A stretch of DNA of 4,703 nt from a virus (Duplodnaviria > Heunggongvirae > Uroviricota > Caudoviricetes), in IMG/VR virus record IMGVR_UViG_2667527818_000004. The stretch is one strand, 5' to 3'. The notes beneath the pieces were generated by a model. That model had not been told where the DNA came from. It made no database searches and was given only the letters and a program-made list of their open reading frames with translations. Position numbers and translations under genes: made by a program. Every line of letters starts with the position of its first letter. Positions within the stretch are counted from its first letter, which is position 1. Positions 1 through 4,703 of the stretch are shown piece by piece.

Positions 1-6
1 TAAGAC

Positions 7-26
7 TATCACTTATTTAAGTGATA
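7..26. promoter_or_regulatory. Dyad-symmetric candidate operator upstream of the first plus-strand gene
   Basis: Perfect 9-bp inverted repeat TATCACTTA (7-15) / TAAGTGATA (18-26) with a 2-bp spacer. Nearby are a weak -35-like TTGTCT (31-36) and an SD-like GGGAGG (66-71). Upstream context is cut off by the window edge, and the site could instead lie inside coding sequence if the 616-aa gene starts upstream. Confidence 0.3.
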
Positions 27-70
27 TTGGTTGTCTGGAGATTCAGGGGGCCAGTCTATTAGCGTGGGAG

Positions 71-1921
71 GTGCTCCTCTTCTTGGTACTGATGGCACTC
101 CAGTTAATGGCCAAAGCAGCTGATAATGCAGACTGGAAGGCCCGCTGGGGTAGCGTCCATCACACAGACCGTACGTTGTTAGCACATTATCGCGCGTCGT
201 TGAAAAGCGCCATTCAGCGCAAGGCTAATATCACTCAAGCCATCTCCCGCTATGAGAAATTATTGAACCGTACTCAGAAGGCCGCGACGGATATCAAACG
301 CCTGCGCCCGCTGGTGGAGGATGCAATAAATAAAGGCATTCTGGATGTTGATCCTGATCTGGTTAACCATGCGAATGAGTTCCTTGTTATCGGCGATCGC
401 TCATGGCGTGTAGGCCAATACTACGATTGTGCCGGTGATATCGTTCGCATTAAGTCGCTGGACTTCGACAGCCAGCGCGCAGACGTGGAGATCATCTTTA
501 CCTTCAAAGGTACCAAATCGGGTAACTGGGATGTGAAGACGCTGGATAAACAGGTTGATGTAATTCCCGATGAAGATGCTGTTATGCAGAAAATCAGTGG
601 TGGCGTCTCCATCGCCGGGATTAACGACATCATTTCCTGTGACGATTTCTACCGTTTCCAGCAGCGCGGCATGATCAAAATCACTGACTCATACGGCGTT
701 CAGACTACAGAGTCAGGCTATAGCATCGATTTTGTTGGTACCTATACGGACCCACTGAAGCATGCGGTTTACCCGGATCGCCGTGACGGCGCGCTGAAGT
801 CGTCAATTGCAAAATGGGTGCTTGGTATGATGTCGGAAGGGAATAACCGCCAGATCCGTTCGGCAGAAACATTCCTGGTTGAACTGTTTGGCTCCAATTA
901 TGGCGATGTAATCGCGTCATACGGAGATACGCTATCCCCTGAAGCAATTCAGGAGAAAATAGCGGATGCGATCGCCAGAATGCCGGAAAAAACAAGCCAG
1001 GGGGCTACTCGTAACGGGGATTCTGAACTTGAAGTCACCAATGCCATTTTCGGTACCAATGAGTTCCGGGCGTCAGATTATGAGATCACCACAGCACAGT
1101 TTGGCACCATTGGCATTTACAGCAATAAAGACGAGATCAAACAGTCAATGGACGCTGCAAGCGCGCGCATTGCAGCAGAACGCAAAGCCAATCTGAATCA
1201 TGCAGTTTCCGCGCTGACTCAATCGTGGGTAACAGCAATCAGGGAGGCCGCCACCACAGGAAAAATCACACCGGCAATTGCGGATGTCGTAAACGACGGC
1301 TCTAAATTTATGGATGCCTATAAAATGGATGCGGTGCAGTTGCCATCAGCCTATGGTCAACTCAGCTATCGCATGACCTACAACCTGGTATCAATGTTTT
1401 CCGACCTTGCCATCCTTGGGCTGGTGGATCTTAACGAGGTTACGCCGGAATTGCTCAGCATGCGCAAGAATCATGTGGAGATATTGCAGAGAATTAACAC
1501 GGTTCTTGCCGGGCGCACCGATGAAGAGAAACAGGCCGACGCTGATCGGATAAACCTGGCCCTTGGCAACATCACGGAGGAAGAGATTGCCGCCAGAAAC
1601 GAGAAACAAGAAGAGTTATCATCAATACAGGGTGATGCCACCAGCATAGCTCAGTCTCTTGGTCTGAATTATCGCGTATCCACCGCCGACCTGAAGATGA
1701 TGTTCGCACCAAAATTCGCCGCTGGCGAGGTATTTGGGCTTCAGGAAGCCTCAGGCATGAAAGGCGTTCTTTTCCGTGCGAAAGACGCAATCAAGGCGAA
1801 ATTCGGCGCTCGCTGGCTGCCAGCGAAGGCGAAGAACAGCGATTTCCCGGGTAACTGGTGGATTATCGAGACAAAACACAACGTGGCGGACGTTCTGGCC
1901 GTCATCCAACAATACGCATAA
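71..1921 (+). CDS. Hypothetical protein, 616 aa, function unknown; first gene of a probable three-gene plus-strand operon
   Basis: Long uninterrupted ORF ending at TAA 1919-1921, about 50-52% GC. The frame is open back to the window edge (no stop in positions 2-70), so the true start is ambiguous: GTG 71 overlaps an SD-like GGGAGG (66-71), and TTG 83 or ATG 89 are alternatives, or the gene may begin upstream of the window. No Walker A (P-loop) motif found by eye. Hydrophobic N-terminal segment LLFLVLMALQLMA. Confidence 0.7.
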   Translation: MLLFLVLMALQLMAKAADNADWKARWGSVHHTDRTLLAHYRASLKSAIQRKANITQAISRYEKLLNRTQKAATDIKRLRPLVEDAINKGILDVDPDLVNHANEFLVIGDRSWRVGQYYDCAGDIVRIKSLDFDSQRADVEIIFTFKGTKSGNWDVKTLDKQVDVIPDEDAVMQKISGGVSIAGINDIISCDDFYRFQQRGMIKITDSYGVQTTESGYSIDFVGTYTDPLKHAVYPDRRDGALKSSIAKWVLGMMSEGNNRQIRSAETFLVELFGSNYGDVIASYGDTLSPEAIQEKIADAIARMPEKTSQGATRNGDSELEVTNAIFGTNEFRASDYEITTAQFGTIGIYSNKDEIKQSMDAASARIAAERKANLNHAVSALTQSWVTAIREAATTGKITPAIADVVNDGSKFMDAYKMDAVQLPSAYGQLSYRMTYNLVSMFSDLAILGLVDLNEVTPELLSMRKNHVEILQRINTVLAGRTDEEKQADADRINLALGNITEEEIAARNEKQEELSSIQGDATSIAQSLGLNYRVSTADLKMMFAPKFAAGEVFGLQEASGMKGVLFRAKDAIKAKFGARWLPAKAKNSDFPGNWWIIETKHNVADVLAVIQQYA

Positions 1922-1954: not shown

Positions 1955-2395
1955 ATGGCCACACTATCTGATACAATAAAACCGAATAAAACATATCTTG
2001 AGGCGGTACTCCGTACAGCGTTGTTAGGAAAGACAGAAGACGAATACGTTGATTTCTTCCTGTCAGGGCTACGCGGGCGATTACTGAAAAATCCCCGCCT
2101 GTACCGCAGCTATGGTCCATACTGGTCGGAAATTAAAAAATTATTACTGGAGCGCGGTTATGGTAATTTCGGTCGTCTCGTTGACCGTGACGTTCGCAAA
2201 ATTTACCGTTATGACCGCCCGGCGCTAACACTCATAGCCGCGACGCTCTACAGCCAGGAGCGTTTTGATAATGGTCAGATATACTCAGCCTGGCATTTAC
2301 TGCCAGTGCCTGAAGAGGTTGACGACCAGGACTATGAGTTTGAGTCTTACGATTTGGAAGTTGAAGCCTTGGCACAGGCTGGAGAGAAAACTTGA
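1955..2395 (+). CDS. Hypothetical protein, 146 aa, with acidic C-terminal tail; function unknown
   Basis: ATG at 1955 lies 33 nt after the upstream stop. The ORF has the same GC content as, and sits in tandem with, the 616-aa gene. The C-terminus is rich in D/E (EEVDDQDYEFESYDLEVE). Stop TGA 2393-2395 overlaps the start of the next ORF. No canonical SD directly upstream; an AGGAG at 1923-1927 is separated from the ATG by a hairpin. Confidence 0.6.
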   Translation: MATLSDTIKPNKTYLEAVLRTALLGKTEDEYVDFFLSGLRGRLLKNPRLYRSYGPYWSEIKKLLLERGYGNFGRLVDRDVRKIYRYDRPALTLIAATLYSQERFDNGQIYSAWHLLPVPEEVDDQDYEFESYDLEVEALAQAGEKT

Positions 2396-2640
2396 AAAAG
2401 CGATACTACACAGTAAAGCATGGGACGCTACGAGCATTACAAGAGTTTGCTGACAAGCATAACGTTGAGGTGCGCAGGGAAGGGGGAAGTAAAGCTCTGC
2501 GCATGTACCGTCCGGACGGAAAATGGCGGACGGTCGTCGATTTCAAAACTAACAGCGTTCCCCAGGGCGTCCGCGACCGGGCATTCGAGGAATGGGAGCA
2601 GATCATCATAGATAACGCATTGCTCCTGAATGCTGATTAA
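2392..2640 (+). CDS. Hypothetical small basic protein, 82 aa (TTG start); weak motif-level resemblance to HicA/YcfA-like small RNA-binding proteins, unverified
   Basis: TTG 2392-2394 overlaps the TGA stop of the upstream ORF (TTGA), suggesting translational coupling. SD-like GGAGAG at 2381-2386 sits 5 nt upstream of the TTG. Stop TAA 2638-2640 is followed 5 nt later by a hairpin. The alternative first in-frame ATG (about 2500) would give only 46 aa. The HicA-like resemblance (GGSKAL...RPDGKWRTVV...VPQGV) is recalled from memory and lacks the usual His residues. Confidence 0.5.
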   Translation: MKKRYYTVKHGTLRALQEFADKHNVEVRREGGSKALRMYRPDGKWRTVVDFKTNSVPQGVRDRAFEEWEQIIIDNALLLNAD

Positions 2641-2644
2641 GAAC

Positions 2645-2673
2645 TCTCCGGCCTAGGGAGATTAGGCCGGAGA
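2645..2673. terminator. Probable bidirectional transcription terminator hairpin between convergent operons
   Basis: Perfect 11-bp inverted repeat tctccggccta (2645-2655) / taggccggaga (2663-2673) with a 7-nt loop gggagat. It lies 5 nt after the plus-strand stop (2640) and 8 nt before the minus-strand gene end (2682). There is no clean U-tract on the plus strand; the minus-strand transcript would continue as GUUCUUAAUC (partial U-tract). Confidence 0.5.
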
Positions 2674-2681
2674 TAAATATA

Positions 2682-3986
2682 CTATATAAACTTAGATATA
2701 ATATCGTGAATCTGTTGTAGCGGGATTTCTTCCATCTTACTCTTAATAAGAGAGCGGTTAGATGCTGTCAGTGAAGGCCATTTTGTTTTCCAGGCTAGAT
2801 ATGCTCGCCATGAGTAGCCTGTTTCGTAAGGTTTATTCATATAAGTCATTGAGTGTTCAACCGCATGTATGTATTTTTTCTCAAAGTTGGTTCCTTTTAC
2901 TTCAAATAAACTACCGAAATAAATAAGCCATTTTGCCAGGTGTTCATACTGCTCCCATGCGCTAGACTCTTTAGTAAGATCTATTTTTTTATCTATTATA
3001 TCACAAAAAACATTTAATACCTTTTCATCATTCCAGCTATATCCAGATGATGAAATGGAGGAAATGATATGATAAAAAGAATCCTCTAACTTCAAGAACT
3101 CTATTTTATACTCTCTTCCGTTTTTTATTACCGATTTGATTGAGTGCCTCAATTTGTCTTTTATTTTTTTTGCTTCTGGAATTTTCTTGTTAAGTTTTCT
3201 AAAGAAATCAGACACCTCTGTTTTATCTATAACCCTAATCCCAAAGCAGGAAAAATAGTAATCTTTAATAGGTTGCAATAGTTTCCCTCGGGAAATAAGG
3301 AAAATATTGGAGGACATTACGTTGTCCCGTGAAAATACCTTATATTCATTTATAATCGCCTTGAGGTTCGCGTCACTTAGAGAATAGCCAAGAATAACAA
3401 TAGTGTTTTCATGTAGAACTGTGCTTAGTTTATTTGAAAAGTAAGAATTACCATTTATAAATCTGAAATAATCCTCGCTAGTAACAACCATATCTGATGG
3501 GGAGTCTATAGAGCCGTGAACATGGTAGACTTTAACCTCACAATTATATTTTGGAATTGGCAGGCCGGGGGTGATTGTACACGTTCGATTCTCTCCAGCC
3601 AGTTTTTCTGCTAACTTGTCATAATTTGTCGTAATTACTTTAAATGTGTTTTCTTTGAAAAAGTCTTGAATATATTCAATTGATGGATCAAGTTCGATTG
3701 AGGCTATGATTTTCTCAATCTCCTGGTAAATATTTTTCCCCGAAAGTATAAATTTTAGTGCAATAACCTGAGCAGCCTCTTCAAGGCTAAGGTCTTTTGC
3801 TTTTCCATCAGGAAATAATTCCTCTTTGAGTGAGTCACCATCCTTCAATAAACCGCACAGTTGCTCCAATAAAGATTGCCAACTTGGGGCTTTATCATCA
3901 GAAACAGCCTTTGAAAATCCAGTGCCTGTAAGAAAGCACAGCCTATGTGTAGCTGCTGCATAGGCAATTTCTATATACTCGCTCAT
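2682..3986 (-). CDS. SIR2-like (sirtuin/DHS-like NAD-binding) domain protein, 434 aa; ThsA-type SIR2 N-terminal domain plus an uncharacterised C-terminal domain; candidate NADase anti-phage effector
   Basis: ATG at 3986-3984 (minus) is preceded by GGAG (plus 3993-3996) with a 6-nt spacer. Stop TAG at 2684-2682. Motifs read from the translation: FLTGTGFS (residues 18-25, glycine-rich NAD-binding loop), VITTNYDKL (residues 117-125, N121) and VYHVHGSID (residues 153-161, H155/H157), followed by IVILGYSLSDANL. These match the order and spacing of SIR2_2-type defence sirtuins as I recall them for ThsA. The gene is about 30% GC against about 50% in the flanks. Confidence 0.8.
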   Translation of the reverse strand: MSEYIEIAYAAATHRLCFLTGTGFSKAVSDDKAPSWQSLLEQLCGLLKDGDSLKEELFPDGKAKDLSLEEAAQVIALKFILSGKNIYQEIEKIIASIELDPSIEYIQDFFKENTFKVITTNYDKLAEKLAGENRTCTITPGLPIPKYNCEVKVYHVHGSIDSPSDMVVTSEDYFRFINGNSYFSNKLSTVLHENTIVILGYSLSDANLKAIINEYKVFSRDNVMSSNIFLISRGKLLQPIKDYYFSCFGIRVIDKTEVSDFFRKLNKKIPEAKKIKDKLRHSIKSVIKNGREYKIEFLKLEDSFYHIISSISSSGYSWNDEKVLNVFCDIIDKKIDLTKESSAWEQYEHLAKWLIYFGSLFEVKGTNFEKKYIHAVEHSMTYMNKPYETGYSWRAYLAWKTKWPSLTASNRSLIKSKMEEIPLQQIHDIISKFI

Positions 3987-4042
3987 TACTTACTCCATTT
4001 ACTTATAGTTCTACGGAGAAGTATACCCTAATGCATTGACGT

Positions 4043-4684
4043 TTATAGATAATTTCCTTTTCCTGTTAATACTCCCTTAGGCACCTGTTTTTGTGCCAGC
4101 GTTTGGGTTCCGCGAATTATGTTAATCAGAGGGCTTAGTAACGATGGTTCCTGGCGTGCCTCAACTTCTCCAGCCATTGCCCTGATGTAGTCTGCGCTGG
4201 CAACGTTGTTGTATTCCGTCGCAAAGCAACATAGTAACGTCAGAACATGCTCTGTCGTTATTTCGCTCCAGTTGATGTTGAAAAATTCATCGCCTTTTTT
4301 GTCGTGTTCGGAATCGAAGATGCTTTGGTGGAGGATGTATTTGCCGGATTCTTTGCGCGGTAACTTGATCGCTTTCTGGCGTTCCAATTCCTTGTAAATC
4401 TGCATTGCTTCAATCAGTACCGGCCTGCCGTTCATAAAGGGATCTCGCAACCTTACACGCTGGCCAACTCGACCAGTAATAAAGCTGTTTTCCTCTTCCA
4501 CCAGCACGATAAAACCCTTTTCCTCTTTTTCTCGCAATTCGCGCAGCAGCTGGAGTTCCATGTCGCGGCGGCGTTCAGGGTAGCTGGTCCGCTCAGCCAT
4601 TATCAGCTCATTGTTGATCCATGCAGCAGTCATTGACGCCGGTTTGCCGACGCTCATTGAAACAACGCATATTTTCTTATCCAT
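4043..4684 (-). CDS. Hypothetical protein, about 214-217 aa, function unknown; encoded immediately upstream of and co-oriented with the SIR2-like gene
   Basis: ORF on the minus strand with stop TAA (plus 4043-4045). Likely ATG start at 4684-4682 giving MDKKICVV...; the ORF track's TTG at 4696 is an alternative, and the frame stays open to the window edge at 4703, so a 5' extension cannot be excluded. About 49% GC. Predicted beta-alpha-beta N-terminus (KICVVSMSV ... GFIVLVEEE). No P-loop, and no TIR or HEPN motif that I can support. Confidence 0.65.
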   Translation of the reverse strand: MDKKICVVSMSVGKPASMTAAWINNELIMAERTSYPERRRDMELQLLRELREKEEKGFIVLVEEENSFITGRVGQRVRLRDPFMNGRPVLIEAMQIYKELERQKAIKLPRKESGKYILHQSIFDSEHDKKGDEFFNINWSEITTEHVLTLLCCFATEYNNVASADYIRAMAGEVEARQEPSLLSPLINIIRGTQTLAQKQVPKGVLTGKGNYL

Positions 4685-4703
4685 AGCGCCCCACAAAAAA
4701 GAA

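What the first reader, a model, noticed from the sequence alone, without database searches (positions are those of the whole stretch)
2682..4696. Possible two-gene operon: unknown 217-aa protein followed by the SIR2 effector
The two minus-strand genes are co-oriented with only a 56-nt gap. I see no convincing sigma70 promoter in the gap (best -10-like TATACT has no matching -35), while the SIR2 gene has a good SD (GGAG, 6-nt spacer). The SIR2 gene may therefore be transcribed from the upstream gene's promoter. In other SIR2 systems a separate protein senses infection or produces the activating signal (ThsB makes the signal for ThsA), so the 217-aa protein could be a sensor or regulator. The differing GC content argues instead that the pairing may be incidental.
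Basis: inference. Interest (0 to 1): 0.65.

Follow-up and report, generated by a model that had tools for sequence, protein, structure and literature searches.

The report
SIR2 defence gene beside P1 mat
The "unknown 217-aa protein" is the conserved phage P1 maturation gene mat, and the SIR2 gene after it is a stand-alone, swappable anti-phage cargo gene in a variable slot of P1-like phage-plasmids, so the pair is a neighbourhood and not a two-protein system.

Summary
Two minus-strand genes (SIR2 2682-3986; upstream ORF 4043-4696) lie 56 nt apart, with a GGAG Shine-Dalgarno, no consensus promoter in the gap, and a GC drop from 47% to 35%.

The upstream ORF is not unknown. It is P1 Mat (96% identical), a core gene confined to P1-like phage-plasmids. 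The window is the P1 segment darB-ulx-lxc-[cargo]-mat.

The lxc-mat interval is a variable slot:
- P1 carries res/mod there and RCS47 has nothing.
- Other relatives carry RelA/SpoT, PIN, DUF2971, YaaC, GNAT or EAL genes, on either strand.
- mat occurs in about 700 PLSDB plasmids. SIR2 follows it in about 18%, as three alleles that are 59% identical.

The 434-aa SIR2 family is widespread in Proteobacteria. In 74 loci from different species there is no Mat homologue and no recurrent neighbour.

The protein is a SIR2 NADase fold (nearest KomC, ThsA, DSR2, Avs5) with invariant catalytic Asn/His, fused to an all-helical C-terminal domain. The likely reading is a single-protein abortive-infection NADase.

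Transcriptional read-through from mat cannot be excluded, because no terminator intervenes. A weak promoter-like site overlaps the mat stop codon. This is an ordinary new member of a known kind.

The parts
1..58 (.). End of an IS2 copy, inserted in or abutting darB
   Evidence: 100% matches to IS2 ends in many phage records, one annotated 'insertion sequence:IS2'. The same IS-darB junction occurs in 35 plasmid records.
105..1921 (+). 3' part of darB, the P1 antirestriction methylase/helicase (backbone)
   Evidence: 97-99% nt identity to P1, RCS47 and SJ46 darB. PHROG 21007/1685 match the C-terminal part only.
1955..2395 (+). ulx (backbone)
   Evidence: phrog_1629 Ulx-like, E 5.6e-65; P1 annotation.
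2392..2640 (+). lxc, modulator of the C1 repressor; left anchor of the variable slot
   Evidence: Identical position and annotation in P1, RCS47 and SJ46. Homology between SIR2 alleles stops at its stop codon.
2645..2673 (.). GC-rich 11-bp hairpin between the convergent lxc and SIR2 genes (terminator-like; part of the cargo)
   Evidence: Terminator scan. RNA fold -21.2 kcal/mol, z = -3.9, 0 of 200 shuffles as stable. Not shared with the other SIR2 alleles.
2682..3986 (-). SIR2-family protein, 434 aa: the cargo gene of the slot
   Evidence: Pfam SIR2_2 E 1.4e-23. PADLOC PDC-S25, ThsA, LmuA and Dsr2 hit the SIR2 domain only. phrog_7567 full length. 100% identical cluster of 827 sequences, and a family at 55-61% identity across Proteobacteria.
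3222..3986 (-). N-terminal SIR2 (Rossmann) NADase domain, residues 1-255, with Asn121 (TTNYD, 3624-3626) and His157 (HVHGS, 3516-3518)
2685..3215 (-). All-helical C-terminal domain, residues 258-434: presumed sensor or oligomerisation domain
3987..4042 (-). 56-nt leader with SD GGAG (3993-3996). AT-rich like the cargo, and 55/56 identical in all three SIR2 alleles
   Evidence: Absent upstream of SIR2 homologues outside P1-like elements. No P1 late promoter (PWM 4.2 versus 17.7-22.7) and no C1 operator. A predicted SD-sequestering hairpin is not significant (z = -1.1).
4042..4069 (-). Candidate weak sigma-70 promoter TTAACA-N16-TATAAA overlapping the last mat codons and stop codon
   Evidence: The only site with at least 9 of 12 matches on this strand between 3900 and 4703, and one of 7 such sites in the whole window on both strands. 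The same position reads TTAACA-16-TATAAT in SJ46 (co-oriented RelA/SpoT cargo) and only 8/12 in empty or convergent slots. Consensus match only, not shown to function.
4043..4684 (-). mat, the P1 maturation-control gene; right anchor of the slot. The ORF stays open to 4696 and the window end
   Evidence: 96% aa identity to P1 Mat. phrog_1837 full length. The family has only 70 clusters, essentially all Enterobacteriaceae P1-like contigs.
4043..4175 (-). Mosaic 3' end of mat (last ~44 codons) that travels with the cargo
   Evidence: Homology to P1 decays over the last ~40 codons and ends at the stop codon. mat matches in other plasmids begin at query positions 1, 5, 38, 61, 72 and 119-133. The Mat C-terminal tail is hypervariable in the alignment.

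Best explanation
The window is a piece of a P1-like phage-plasmid: IS2 end, darB, ulx, lxc, cargo, mat. The interval between lxc and mat is a recombinational hot spot that holds a different accessory or defence module in different relatives. Here it holds a single gene for a 434-aa SIR2-family protein. mat is a backbone gene needed for P1 virion maturation, and it sits next to SIR2 only because it is the right-hand anchor of the slot. The SIR2 protein most likely works alone. Its helical C-terminal domain would sense an infection cue, most plausibly a protein of a competing phage. The protein would then oligomerise, and the N-terminal SIR2 domain would hydrolyse NAD+, stopping the infected cell (abortive infection) and protecting the lysogen population and the plasmid. 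Expression is probably from a weak promoter overlapping the mat stop codon, from read-through of mat transcripts, or from both. Shown: gene identities, slot variability, absence of any conserved partner, fold, and catalytic residues. Inferred: NADase activity, defence role, the trigger, and the promoter.
For: Backbone identity: 97-99% nt identity to P1, RCS47 and SJ46 on both sides of the cargo but none across it; Mat is 96% identical to P1 Mat. Slot variability: P1 has res/mod on the other strand; RCS47 is empty; SJ46 and pE94-3 have RelA/SpoT; others carry YaaC plus a deoxyribosyltransferase-like gene, PIN, DUF2971, or AraC plus EAL. An even sample of 60 of 712 records shows at least 10 cargo types, with SIR2 in 10 of 60. 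Several cargos hit PADLOC single-gene defence candidates: PDC-S33, S34, S31, S25. Counts: mat in 696 plasmid records, SIR2 of any allele in 127. Stand-alone nature: 74 full-length homologues from different species give 0 Mat hits and no neighbour family in more than 4 loci, those few being same-genus contexts. Individual contexts differ: a defence island, next to a prophage integrase, next to LysR. Composition: cargo and leader 35% GC versus 47-51% in the flanks. There are no flanking repeats. Enzyme: SIR2_2 domain; model pLDDT 84; nearest structures are the defence NADases KomC, ThsA, DSR2 and Avs5; Asn121, His155 and His157 are invariant.
Confidence: 0.75

Rival explanations
1. One reading: Mat and SIR2 form a two-component defence system in which Mat senses infection or makes or relays a signal that activates the SIR2 effector, as ThsB does for ThsA.
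For: The genes are co-oriented, 56 nt apart, with no terminator and no consensus promoter between them. The arrangement and leader are kept in all three SIR2 alleles. The Mat C-terminal tail variant is linked to the cargo type.
Against: About 82% of mat-bearing plasmids lack SIR2, and P1 itself lacks it. None of 74 SIR2 loci in other species has a Mat homologue or any shared neighbour. Mat is restricted to P1-like elements, whereas the SIR2 family spans alpha-, beta- and gamma-proteobacteria and beyond. Literature lists mat as an essential P1 gene, labelled 'maturation control' (PMC10695390). The tail-cargo linkage is explained by recombination breakpoints inside the mat 3' end.
Confidence: 0.04
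2. Transcriptional operon only. SIR2 has no promoter of its own and is made from the mat transcript (Pmat/LPmat, which in P1 is C1-repressed and late-activated). It would then be expressed mainly when the P1-like element goes lytic, without any functional partnership of the proteins.
For: No terminator-like structure lies between mat and SIR2, whereas slots with convergent or no cargo have hairpins right after mat. No sigma-70 consensus site, no P1 late promoter and no C1 operator lie in the gap. The leader is conserved. The P1 record annotates Omat, Pmat and LPmat upstream of mat.
Against: A 10/12 promoter-like site (TTAACA-16-TATAAA) sits exactly at the mat stop codon, and its -10 is best in elements whose cargo is co-oriented: SJ46 has TATAAT at 11/12. 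Cargo in this slot occurs on either strand, so slot genes generally bring their own signals. A defence gene silent in lysogens would have little selective value. The mat promoter region lies outside the window and could not be inspected here.
Confidence: 0.15
3. The SIR2 protein is not an anti-phage NADase. It would be a protein deacylase or ADP-ribosyltransferase serving the plasmid-prophage itself, for example in regulation, stabilisation or addiction.
For: RefSeq names it 'SIR2 family NAD-dependent protein deacylase'. No experimental data exist for the family. PADLOC and NCBIfam give only sub-threshold or partial matches to validated systems.
Confidence: 0.08

Closest known systems
DSR2 / DSR1 (defence-associated sirtuins; single-protein SIR2 NADases activated by phage tail-tube protein)
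   Same: Single polypeptide with an N-terminal SIR2 NADase domain followed by a helical region. Top Foldseek PDB hits. PADLOC and NCBIfam Dsr2/Dsr1 models hit the SIR2 core. Stand-alone gene with no partner.
   Different: 434 aa versus about 1000-1200 aa. NCBIfam scores are 30.5 and 21.2 bits against a cut-off of 1400. Structural similarity is confined to the SIR2 domain: TM about 0.46 whether or not the DSR2 C-terminal part is present in the target chain. Trigger unknown.
Thoeris ThsA (SIR2-SLOG NADase activated by the ThsB-made signal)
   Different: No SLOG domain; the C-terminus is all-helical and has no Pfam match. No TIR/ThsB gene in the window, and no recurrent neighbour in 74 loci.
KomC of the Kongming (KomABC) system
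   Different: KomC is a bare 264-278-aa SIR2 domain working with KomA and KomB. Here there is an extra 177-residue helical domain and there are no partner genes.
EcoP1I res/mod locus of phage P1, and defence hot spots of P2-like phages and P4-like satellites (Rousset 2022, PMC9122126)
   Same: Same physical slot between lxc and mat that holds P1's type III restriction system. As in the P2/P4 hot spots, conserved anchor genes flank interchangeable defence cargo.
   Different: Different mobile element (phage-plasmid) and different cargo. I found no paper in the library that describes the lxc-mat slot as a hot spot. An older report, Tyndall 1997 (listed in the references of PMC12707154; title only, not read), noted type IC hsd loci flanked by P1 DNA.
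PADLOC candidate PDC-S25 (single-gene SIR2 candidate)
   Same: Best PADLOC hit (E 9e-24), a single-gene SIR2 candidate.
   Different: The match covers only residues 100-253 against profile positions 127-283 of 517, that is the SIR2 core, so it is not the same full-length family.

Membership tests
Two-gene defence system / functional operon (Mat + SIR2) | The two genes co-occur across genomes beyond one mobile-element lineage | tested here: not met
   0 Mat hits (tblastn E<=1) in 74 SIR2 loci of different species. SIR2 is downstream of mat in only about 18% of P1-like plasmids.
Two-gene defence system / functional operon (Mat + SIR2) | Co-transcription from one promoter | not testable with these tools
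   No terminator in the gap, but a promoter-like site lies at the mat stop codon. RNA mapping is needed.
Phage P1 Mat (maturation control protein) | Sequence identity to P1 Mat and synteny cre-c8-ref-mat | tested here: met
   96% identity over 215 aa. A plasmid identical across the SIR2-gap-mat junction (100% over 216 nt) shows ref, c8 and cre next to it.
P1 lxc-mat variable (defence) slot | Conserved flanks with unrelated cargo between them in related elements | tested here: met
   At least 10 cargo types, including an empty site. Identity drops from over 95% to 33-78% exactly between the lxc stop and the SIR2 start.
Defence-type SIR2 NADase | SIR2 Rossmann fold with conserved catalytic Asn and His | tested here: met
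Defence-type SIR2 NADase | NAD+ hydrolysis on infection and phage protection | not testable with these tools
   No experimental report found.
Thoeris ThsA | C-terminal SLOG domain and an adjacent ThsB (TIR) gene | tested here: not met
   No SLOG in Pfam and a helical C-terminus. PADLOC ThsA models match residues 117-236 only. No conserved neighbour.
DSR1 / DSR2 | Score above the NCBIfam equivalog cut-off, and a ~1000-1200-aa architecture | tested here: not met
   30.5 and 21.2 bits versus a cut-off of 1400; 434 aa.
SIR2-HerA (Nezha) | Adjacent HerA ATPase gene | tested here: not met
   No such ORF in the window. PADLOC SIR2 (HerA-type) models give only weak partial hits.
PADLOC PDC-S25 | Full-length match to the profile | tested here: inconclusive
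   E 9e-24, but only 157 of 517 profile positions are matched.

The most novel reading that the evidence does not exclude
The 434-aa 'SIR2 plus short helical domain' proteins would be an uncharacterised, widespread family of miniature stand-alone defence sirtuins. In P1-like phage-plasmids their expression would be deliberately wired to the C1-repressed, late-activated mat transcript through a conserved 56-nt leader that can sequester the Shine-Dalgarno sequence. The NADase would then be deployed during the element's own lytic or derepressed state, for example against co-infecting phages or as a timing or kill device, rather than constitutively in lysogens.
Probability: 0.1. Interest if true: 0.6.

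Novelty: new member of a known kind. Interest (0 to 1): 0.28.

Why it matters
It prevents a mis-annotation: Mat should not be listed as a SIR2 partner or sensor. It documents the lxc-mat interval of P1-like phage-plasmids as a defence and accessory hot spot with at least ten interchangeable cargos. These elements are very common in E. coli and Salmonella and often carry resistance genes. It also flags a compact, widespread and experimentally untested single-gene SIR2 family that would be easy to clone and assay. Beyond that, the finding is ordinary.

Tried and rejected
- **Mat fold.** An AlphaFold2 model from a 15-sequence alignment was too poor to search (pLDDT 52). Pfam, PADLOC and NCBIfam gave nothing for Mat, so its molecular function stays 'maturation control' from genetics only.
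- **P1 late (Lpa) promoter in the gap.** A PWM from 7 annotated late promoters scores the best gap site (CAATGCATT-N4-TATACT) at 4.2 against 17.7-22.7 for real ones. Rejected.
- **C1 operator near the gap.** None with 3 or fewer mismatches anywhere in the window; the best has 4, inside the SIR2 gene.
- **SD-sequestering hairpin in the leader.** It is predicted, but it is no more stable than shuffles (z = -1.1), and there is no covariation because the leaders are nearly identical. Kept only as a note.
- **Transposon-like borders.** No direct or inverted repeats flank the cargo.
- **Structured RNAs.** No Rfam hit at E<=1.
- **Sequenced phage genomes.** The SIR2 gene is absent at DNA level, and only four weak partial protein hits, confined to the N-terminal SIR2 region, appear in Gram-positive phages. 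The gene is seen only in plasmid or prophage records.
- **Candidate partners elsewhere.** Small upstream ORFs in Halomonas and Pseudoalteromonas are unrelated to each other and to Mat. The recurrent Acinetobacter neighbour is aconitase.
- **Literature.** No hits for the RefSeq accessions, and nothing relevant for 'P1-like' plus 'SIR2'.
Full report
**1. Observation**

The window has two minus-strand ORFs, 2682-3986 (434 aa) and 4043-4696 (217 aa from a TTG), separated by 56 nt. The sequence shows GGAG 6 nt before the ATG of the 434-aa ORF. The consensus scan found no sigma-70 site in the gap. GC is 35.3% for the SIR2 gene, 35.7% for the gap, 47.4% for the upstream gene and about 50% for the rest. 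The description is accurate. The likely true start of the upstream gene is ATG 4684 (213 aa). The PHROG profile begins there and RefSeq annotates 642-nt genes in identical plasmids. The frame remains open to the window edge, and P1's own record annotates a longer 250-aa form.

**2. What the genes are**

The 434-aa protein has a Pfam SIR2_2 domain (E 1.4e-23). Its SIR2 core hits PADLOC models for PDC-S25, ThsA, LmuA and Dsr2. The "unknown" upstream protein has no Pfam, PADLOC or NCBIfam hit, but it is phrog_1837 over its full length and 96% identical to Mat of phage P1.

The other ORFs are the C-terminal part of DarB, then Ulx and Lxc. The first 58 nt are an IS2 end. The window is therefore the darB-ulx-lxc-X-mat segment of a P1-like phage-plasmid. 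Identical segments occur in about 95-kb IncY/IncHI1B-typed plasmids, mostly of E. coli with a few from Salmonella, Klebsiella and E. fergusonii.

**3. The slot between lxc and mat is variable**

- P1 holds the type III restriction system res/mod there, on the opposite strand to mat.
- RCS47 has an empty slot, with 39 nt between lxc and mat.
- SJ46 and pE94-3 hold a RelA/SpoT-domain gene co-oriented with mat.
- Other plasmids hold a YaaC protein plus a deoxyribosyltransferase-like protein, a PIN protein on the other strand, a DUF2971 protein on the other strand, or an AraC-type regulator plus an EAL protein.

A search with the "empty" RCS47 configuration found 712 plasmid records. An evenly spaced sample of 60 shows at least ten cargo types, with SIR2 in 10 of 60. 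mat itself is in 696 plasmid records. A SIR2 gene is present in 127 of these records: 66 carry this allele and 61 carry diverged alleles. Several of the alternative cargos match PADLOC single-gene defence candidates PDC-S33, S34 and S31. The slot therefore behaves like a defence and accessory hot spot.

Homology to P1 fades over the last ~40 codons of mat and stops at its stop codon. mat matches in other plasmids begin at several different positions within the last 133 nt. The Mat C-terminal tail is hypervariable in otherwise 87-97% identical proteins. No repeats flank the cargo. Exchange is thus most simply explained by homologous recombination in the flanking genes, with the mat 3' end travelling with the cargo. 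That mechanism is an inference.

**4. Does SIR2 need Mat?**

The 434-aa protein belongs to a large family conserved over its full length. It is 55-61% identical to proteins of Vibrio, Halomonas, Xenorhabdus, Pseudoalteromonas, Marinobacter, Pantoea, Pseudomonas, Delftia and Paracidovorax. A scan of one genome per species confirmed 181 relatives and kept the best 80 loci.

In the 74 loci with a full-length homologue, tblastn with Mat finds nothing even at E<=1. Clustering the three ORFs on each side finds no neighbour family in more than 4 loci. The few recurrent ones are the same prophage or the same genus, and the Acinetobacter one is aconitase. Individual contexts differ: a defence island in Halomonas, a spot next to a prophage integrase in the E. 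coli chromosome, and a spot next to a LysR gene in Paracidovorax. The small upstream ORFs are unrelated to Mat and to each other.

Conversely, the Mat family is tiny, with 70 clusters that are essentially all from P1-like contigs of Enterobacteriaceae. Literature lists mat as an essential P1 gene, labelled "maturation control" (PMC10695390). The phyletic patterns do not overlap outside one mobile-element lineage.

**5. The protein and its likely mechanism**

The AlphaFold2 model (pLDDT 84, pTM 0.82) has a Rossmann-type SIR2 domain (residues about 1-255), a long helix, and an all-helical C-terminal domain (258-434).

- Foldseek ranks DSR2 first, but the TM-score does not improve when the DSR2 helical region is included.
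- Asn121 (TTNYD) and His155/His157 (YHVHGS) are invariant in 20 homologues. They align with the catalytic motifs of ThsA.
- The C-terminal domain is more divergent than the catalytic core: 48-55% versus 65-69% identity.

From what is established for ThsA, DSR2, Avs5 and KomC, I infer a single-protein abortive-infection NADase in which the helical domain provides sensing or assembly. Activity, trigger and protection are untested. No paper on this family was found.

It is not a member of Thoeris, because it has no SLOG domain and no ThsB neighbour. It is not DSR1 or DSR2, with 21-30 bits against a cut-off of 1400. It is not SIR2-HerA.

**6. Transcription**

Three SIR2 alleles, 58-59% identical to the window protein and about 66% at nucleotide level, occupy the same slot with exactly the same 56-nt spacing. 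The leader is 55/56 identical, while identity collapses at the start codon and again at the lxc stop. The leader is absent from SIR2 homologues outside P1-like elements and has the cargo's low GC.

It contains no P1 late promoter: the PWM scores 4.2 against 17.7-22.7 for seven annotated late promoters. It contains no C1 operator and no Rfam element. A hairpin that would sequester the SD is predicted but is not better than shuffles.

With the requirement for T at -10 position 6 relaxed, one promoter-like site appears on the gene strand: TTAACA-16-TATAAA at 4069-4042, overlapping the mat stop codon. At the same position SJ46, whose cargo is co-oriented, reads TTAACA-16-TATAAT (11/12). Empty or convergent slots reach only 8/12 and instead have a hairpin right after mat. 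This is a trend in 12 elements, not proof.

Because no terminator separates mat and SIR2, read-through is also expected whenever the mat promoter fires. In P1 that promoter is annotated with a C1 operator and a late promoter. "Operon" in the purely transcriptional sense therefore cannot be decided here.

**7. Verdict**

The pair is a P1 backbone gene next to a swappable single-gene SIR2 cargo in a hot spot that in P1 itself holds the restriction system.

I rate it a new member of a known kind: a defence-type SIR2 protein on a prophage hot spot. The compact untested SIR2 family and the conserved leader are mildly interesting.

Noticed in passing
window 1-104: The window starts with the terminal 58 nt of IS2, followed by about 46 nt that are not matched to P1 darB; homology starts at 105. 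darB is therefore interrupted or truncated in this element. The same IS-darB junction is present in 35 plasmid records, several of them 110-214 kb (possible cointegrates).
   Followed up: partly
window 4043-4175 (mat 3' end): The last ~44 codons of mat are a mosaic that changes with the cargo, while the rest of Mat is 87-97% conserved and a terminal P.G.LTG motif is kept. Breakpoints fall at several discrete positions (query positions 1, 5, 38, 61, 72, 119-133).
   Followed up: partly
window 3987-4042; L005 5156-5211; L007 5210-5265: The 56-nt leader is 55/56 identical between SIR2 alleles whose coding sequences are only about 66% identical, with the identity break exactly at the start codon. 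Either the leader is under strong constraint or alleles are swapped with a breakpoint at the start of the gene.
   Followed up: partly
window 4042-4069; L004 (SJ46) mat stop region: A -35/-10-like element overlaps the mat stop codon. Its -35 comes from the conserved Leu-Thr-Gly codons of Mat. Its -10 is good (TATAAT or TATAAA) mainly when the downstream cargo is co-oriented, and poor when the slot is empty or the cargo is convergent.
   Followed up: partly
window 4348-4366 (-): Inside mat there is a partial match to the P1 late-promoter consensus (AAGTTACCGCGCAAAGAAT; PWM 10.2 against 17.7-22.7 for annotated late promoters). This is probably chance.
   Followed up: no
window 4684-4703 versus L001 2800-2825: Just upstream of the Mat ATG the window differs from P1 by a 2-nt indel (GTGGGGCGC versus GTAGGGGGCGC). 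This changes whether the 250-aa N-terminally extended Mat annotated in P1 can be read, and gene callers disagree (213, 250 and 262-aa forms are in the databases).
   Followed up: no
L011-L014 5001-6311: A 56%-identical SIR2 homologue sits in the E. coli chromosome directly after a prophage integrase gene, beside the ccm cytochrome-c maturation genes and a response-regulator gene. This is a second, independent 'moron' position for the same family.
   Followed up: no
L008 (Halomonas) 100-10667: The Halomonas homologue lies in a dense defence island with HNH, DUF4145 and HSDR_N genes. About 1.4 kb downstream is a 401-aa ORF with no Pfam hit, followed by a 591-aa DUF87 protein, a possible HerA-type pair that I did not check.
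   Followed up: no
L099 5301-6850 (pRHB27-C04_2 slot cargo): One alternative cargo is a YaaC-like protein followed by a small protein with a weak, sub-threshold nucleoside 2-deoxyribosyltransferase-like hit. Neither has a PADLOC match, so this is a possible uncharacterised two-gene module in the same hot spot.
   Followed up: no
L069, L071, L077 (Acinetobacter): The 43-44%-identical Acinetobacter homologues share an 868-878-aa upstream neighbour. It turned out to be aconitase, i.e. conserved chromosomal synteny and not a partner.
   Followed up: yes
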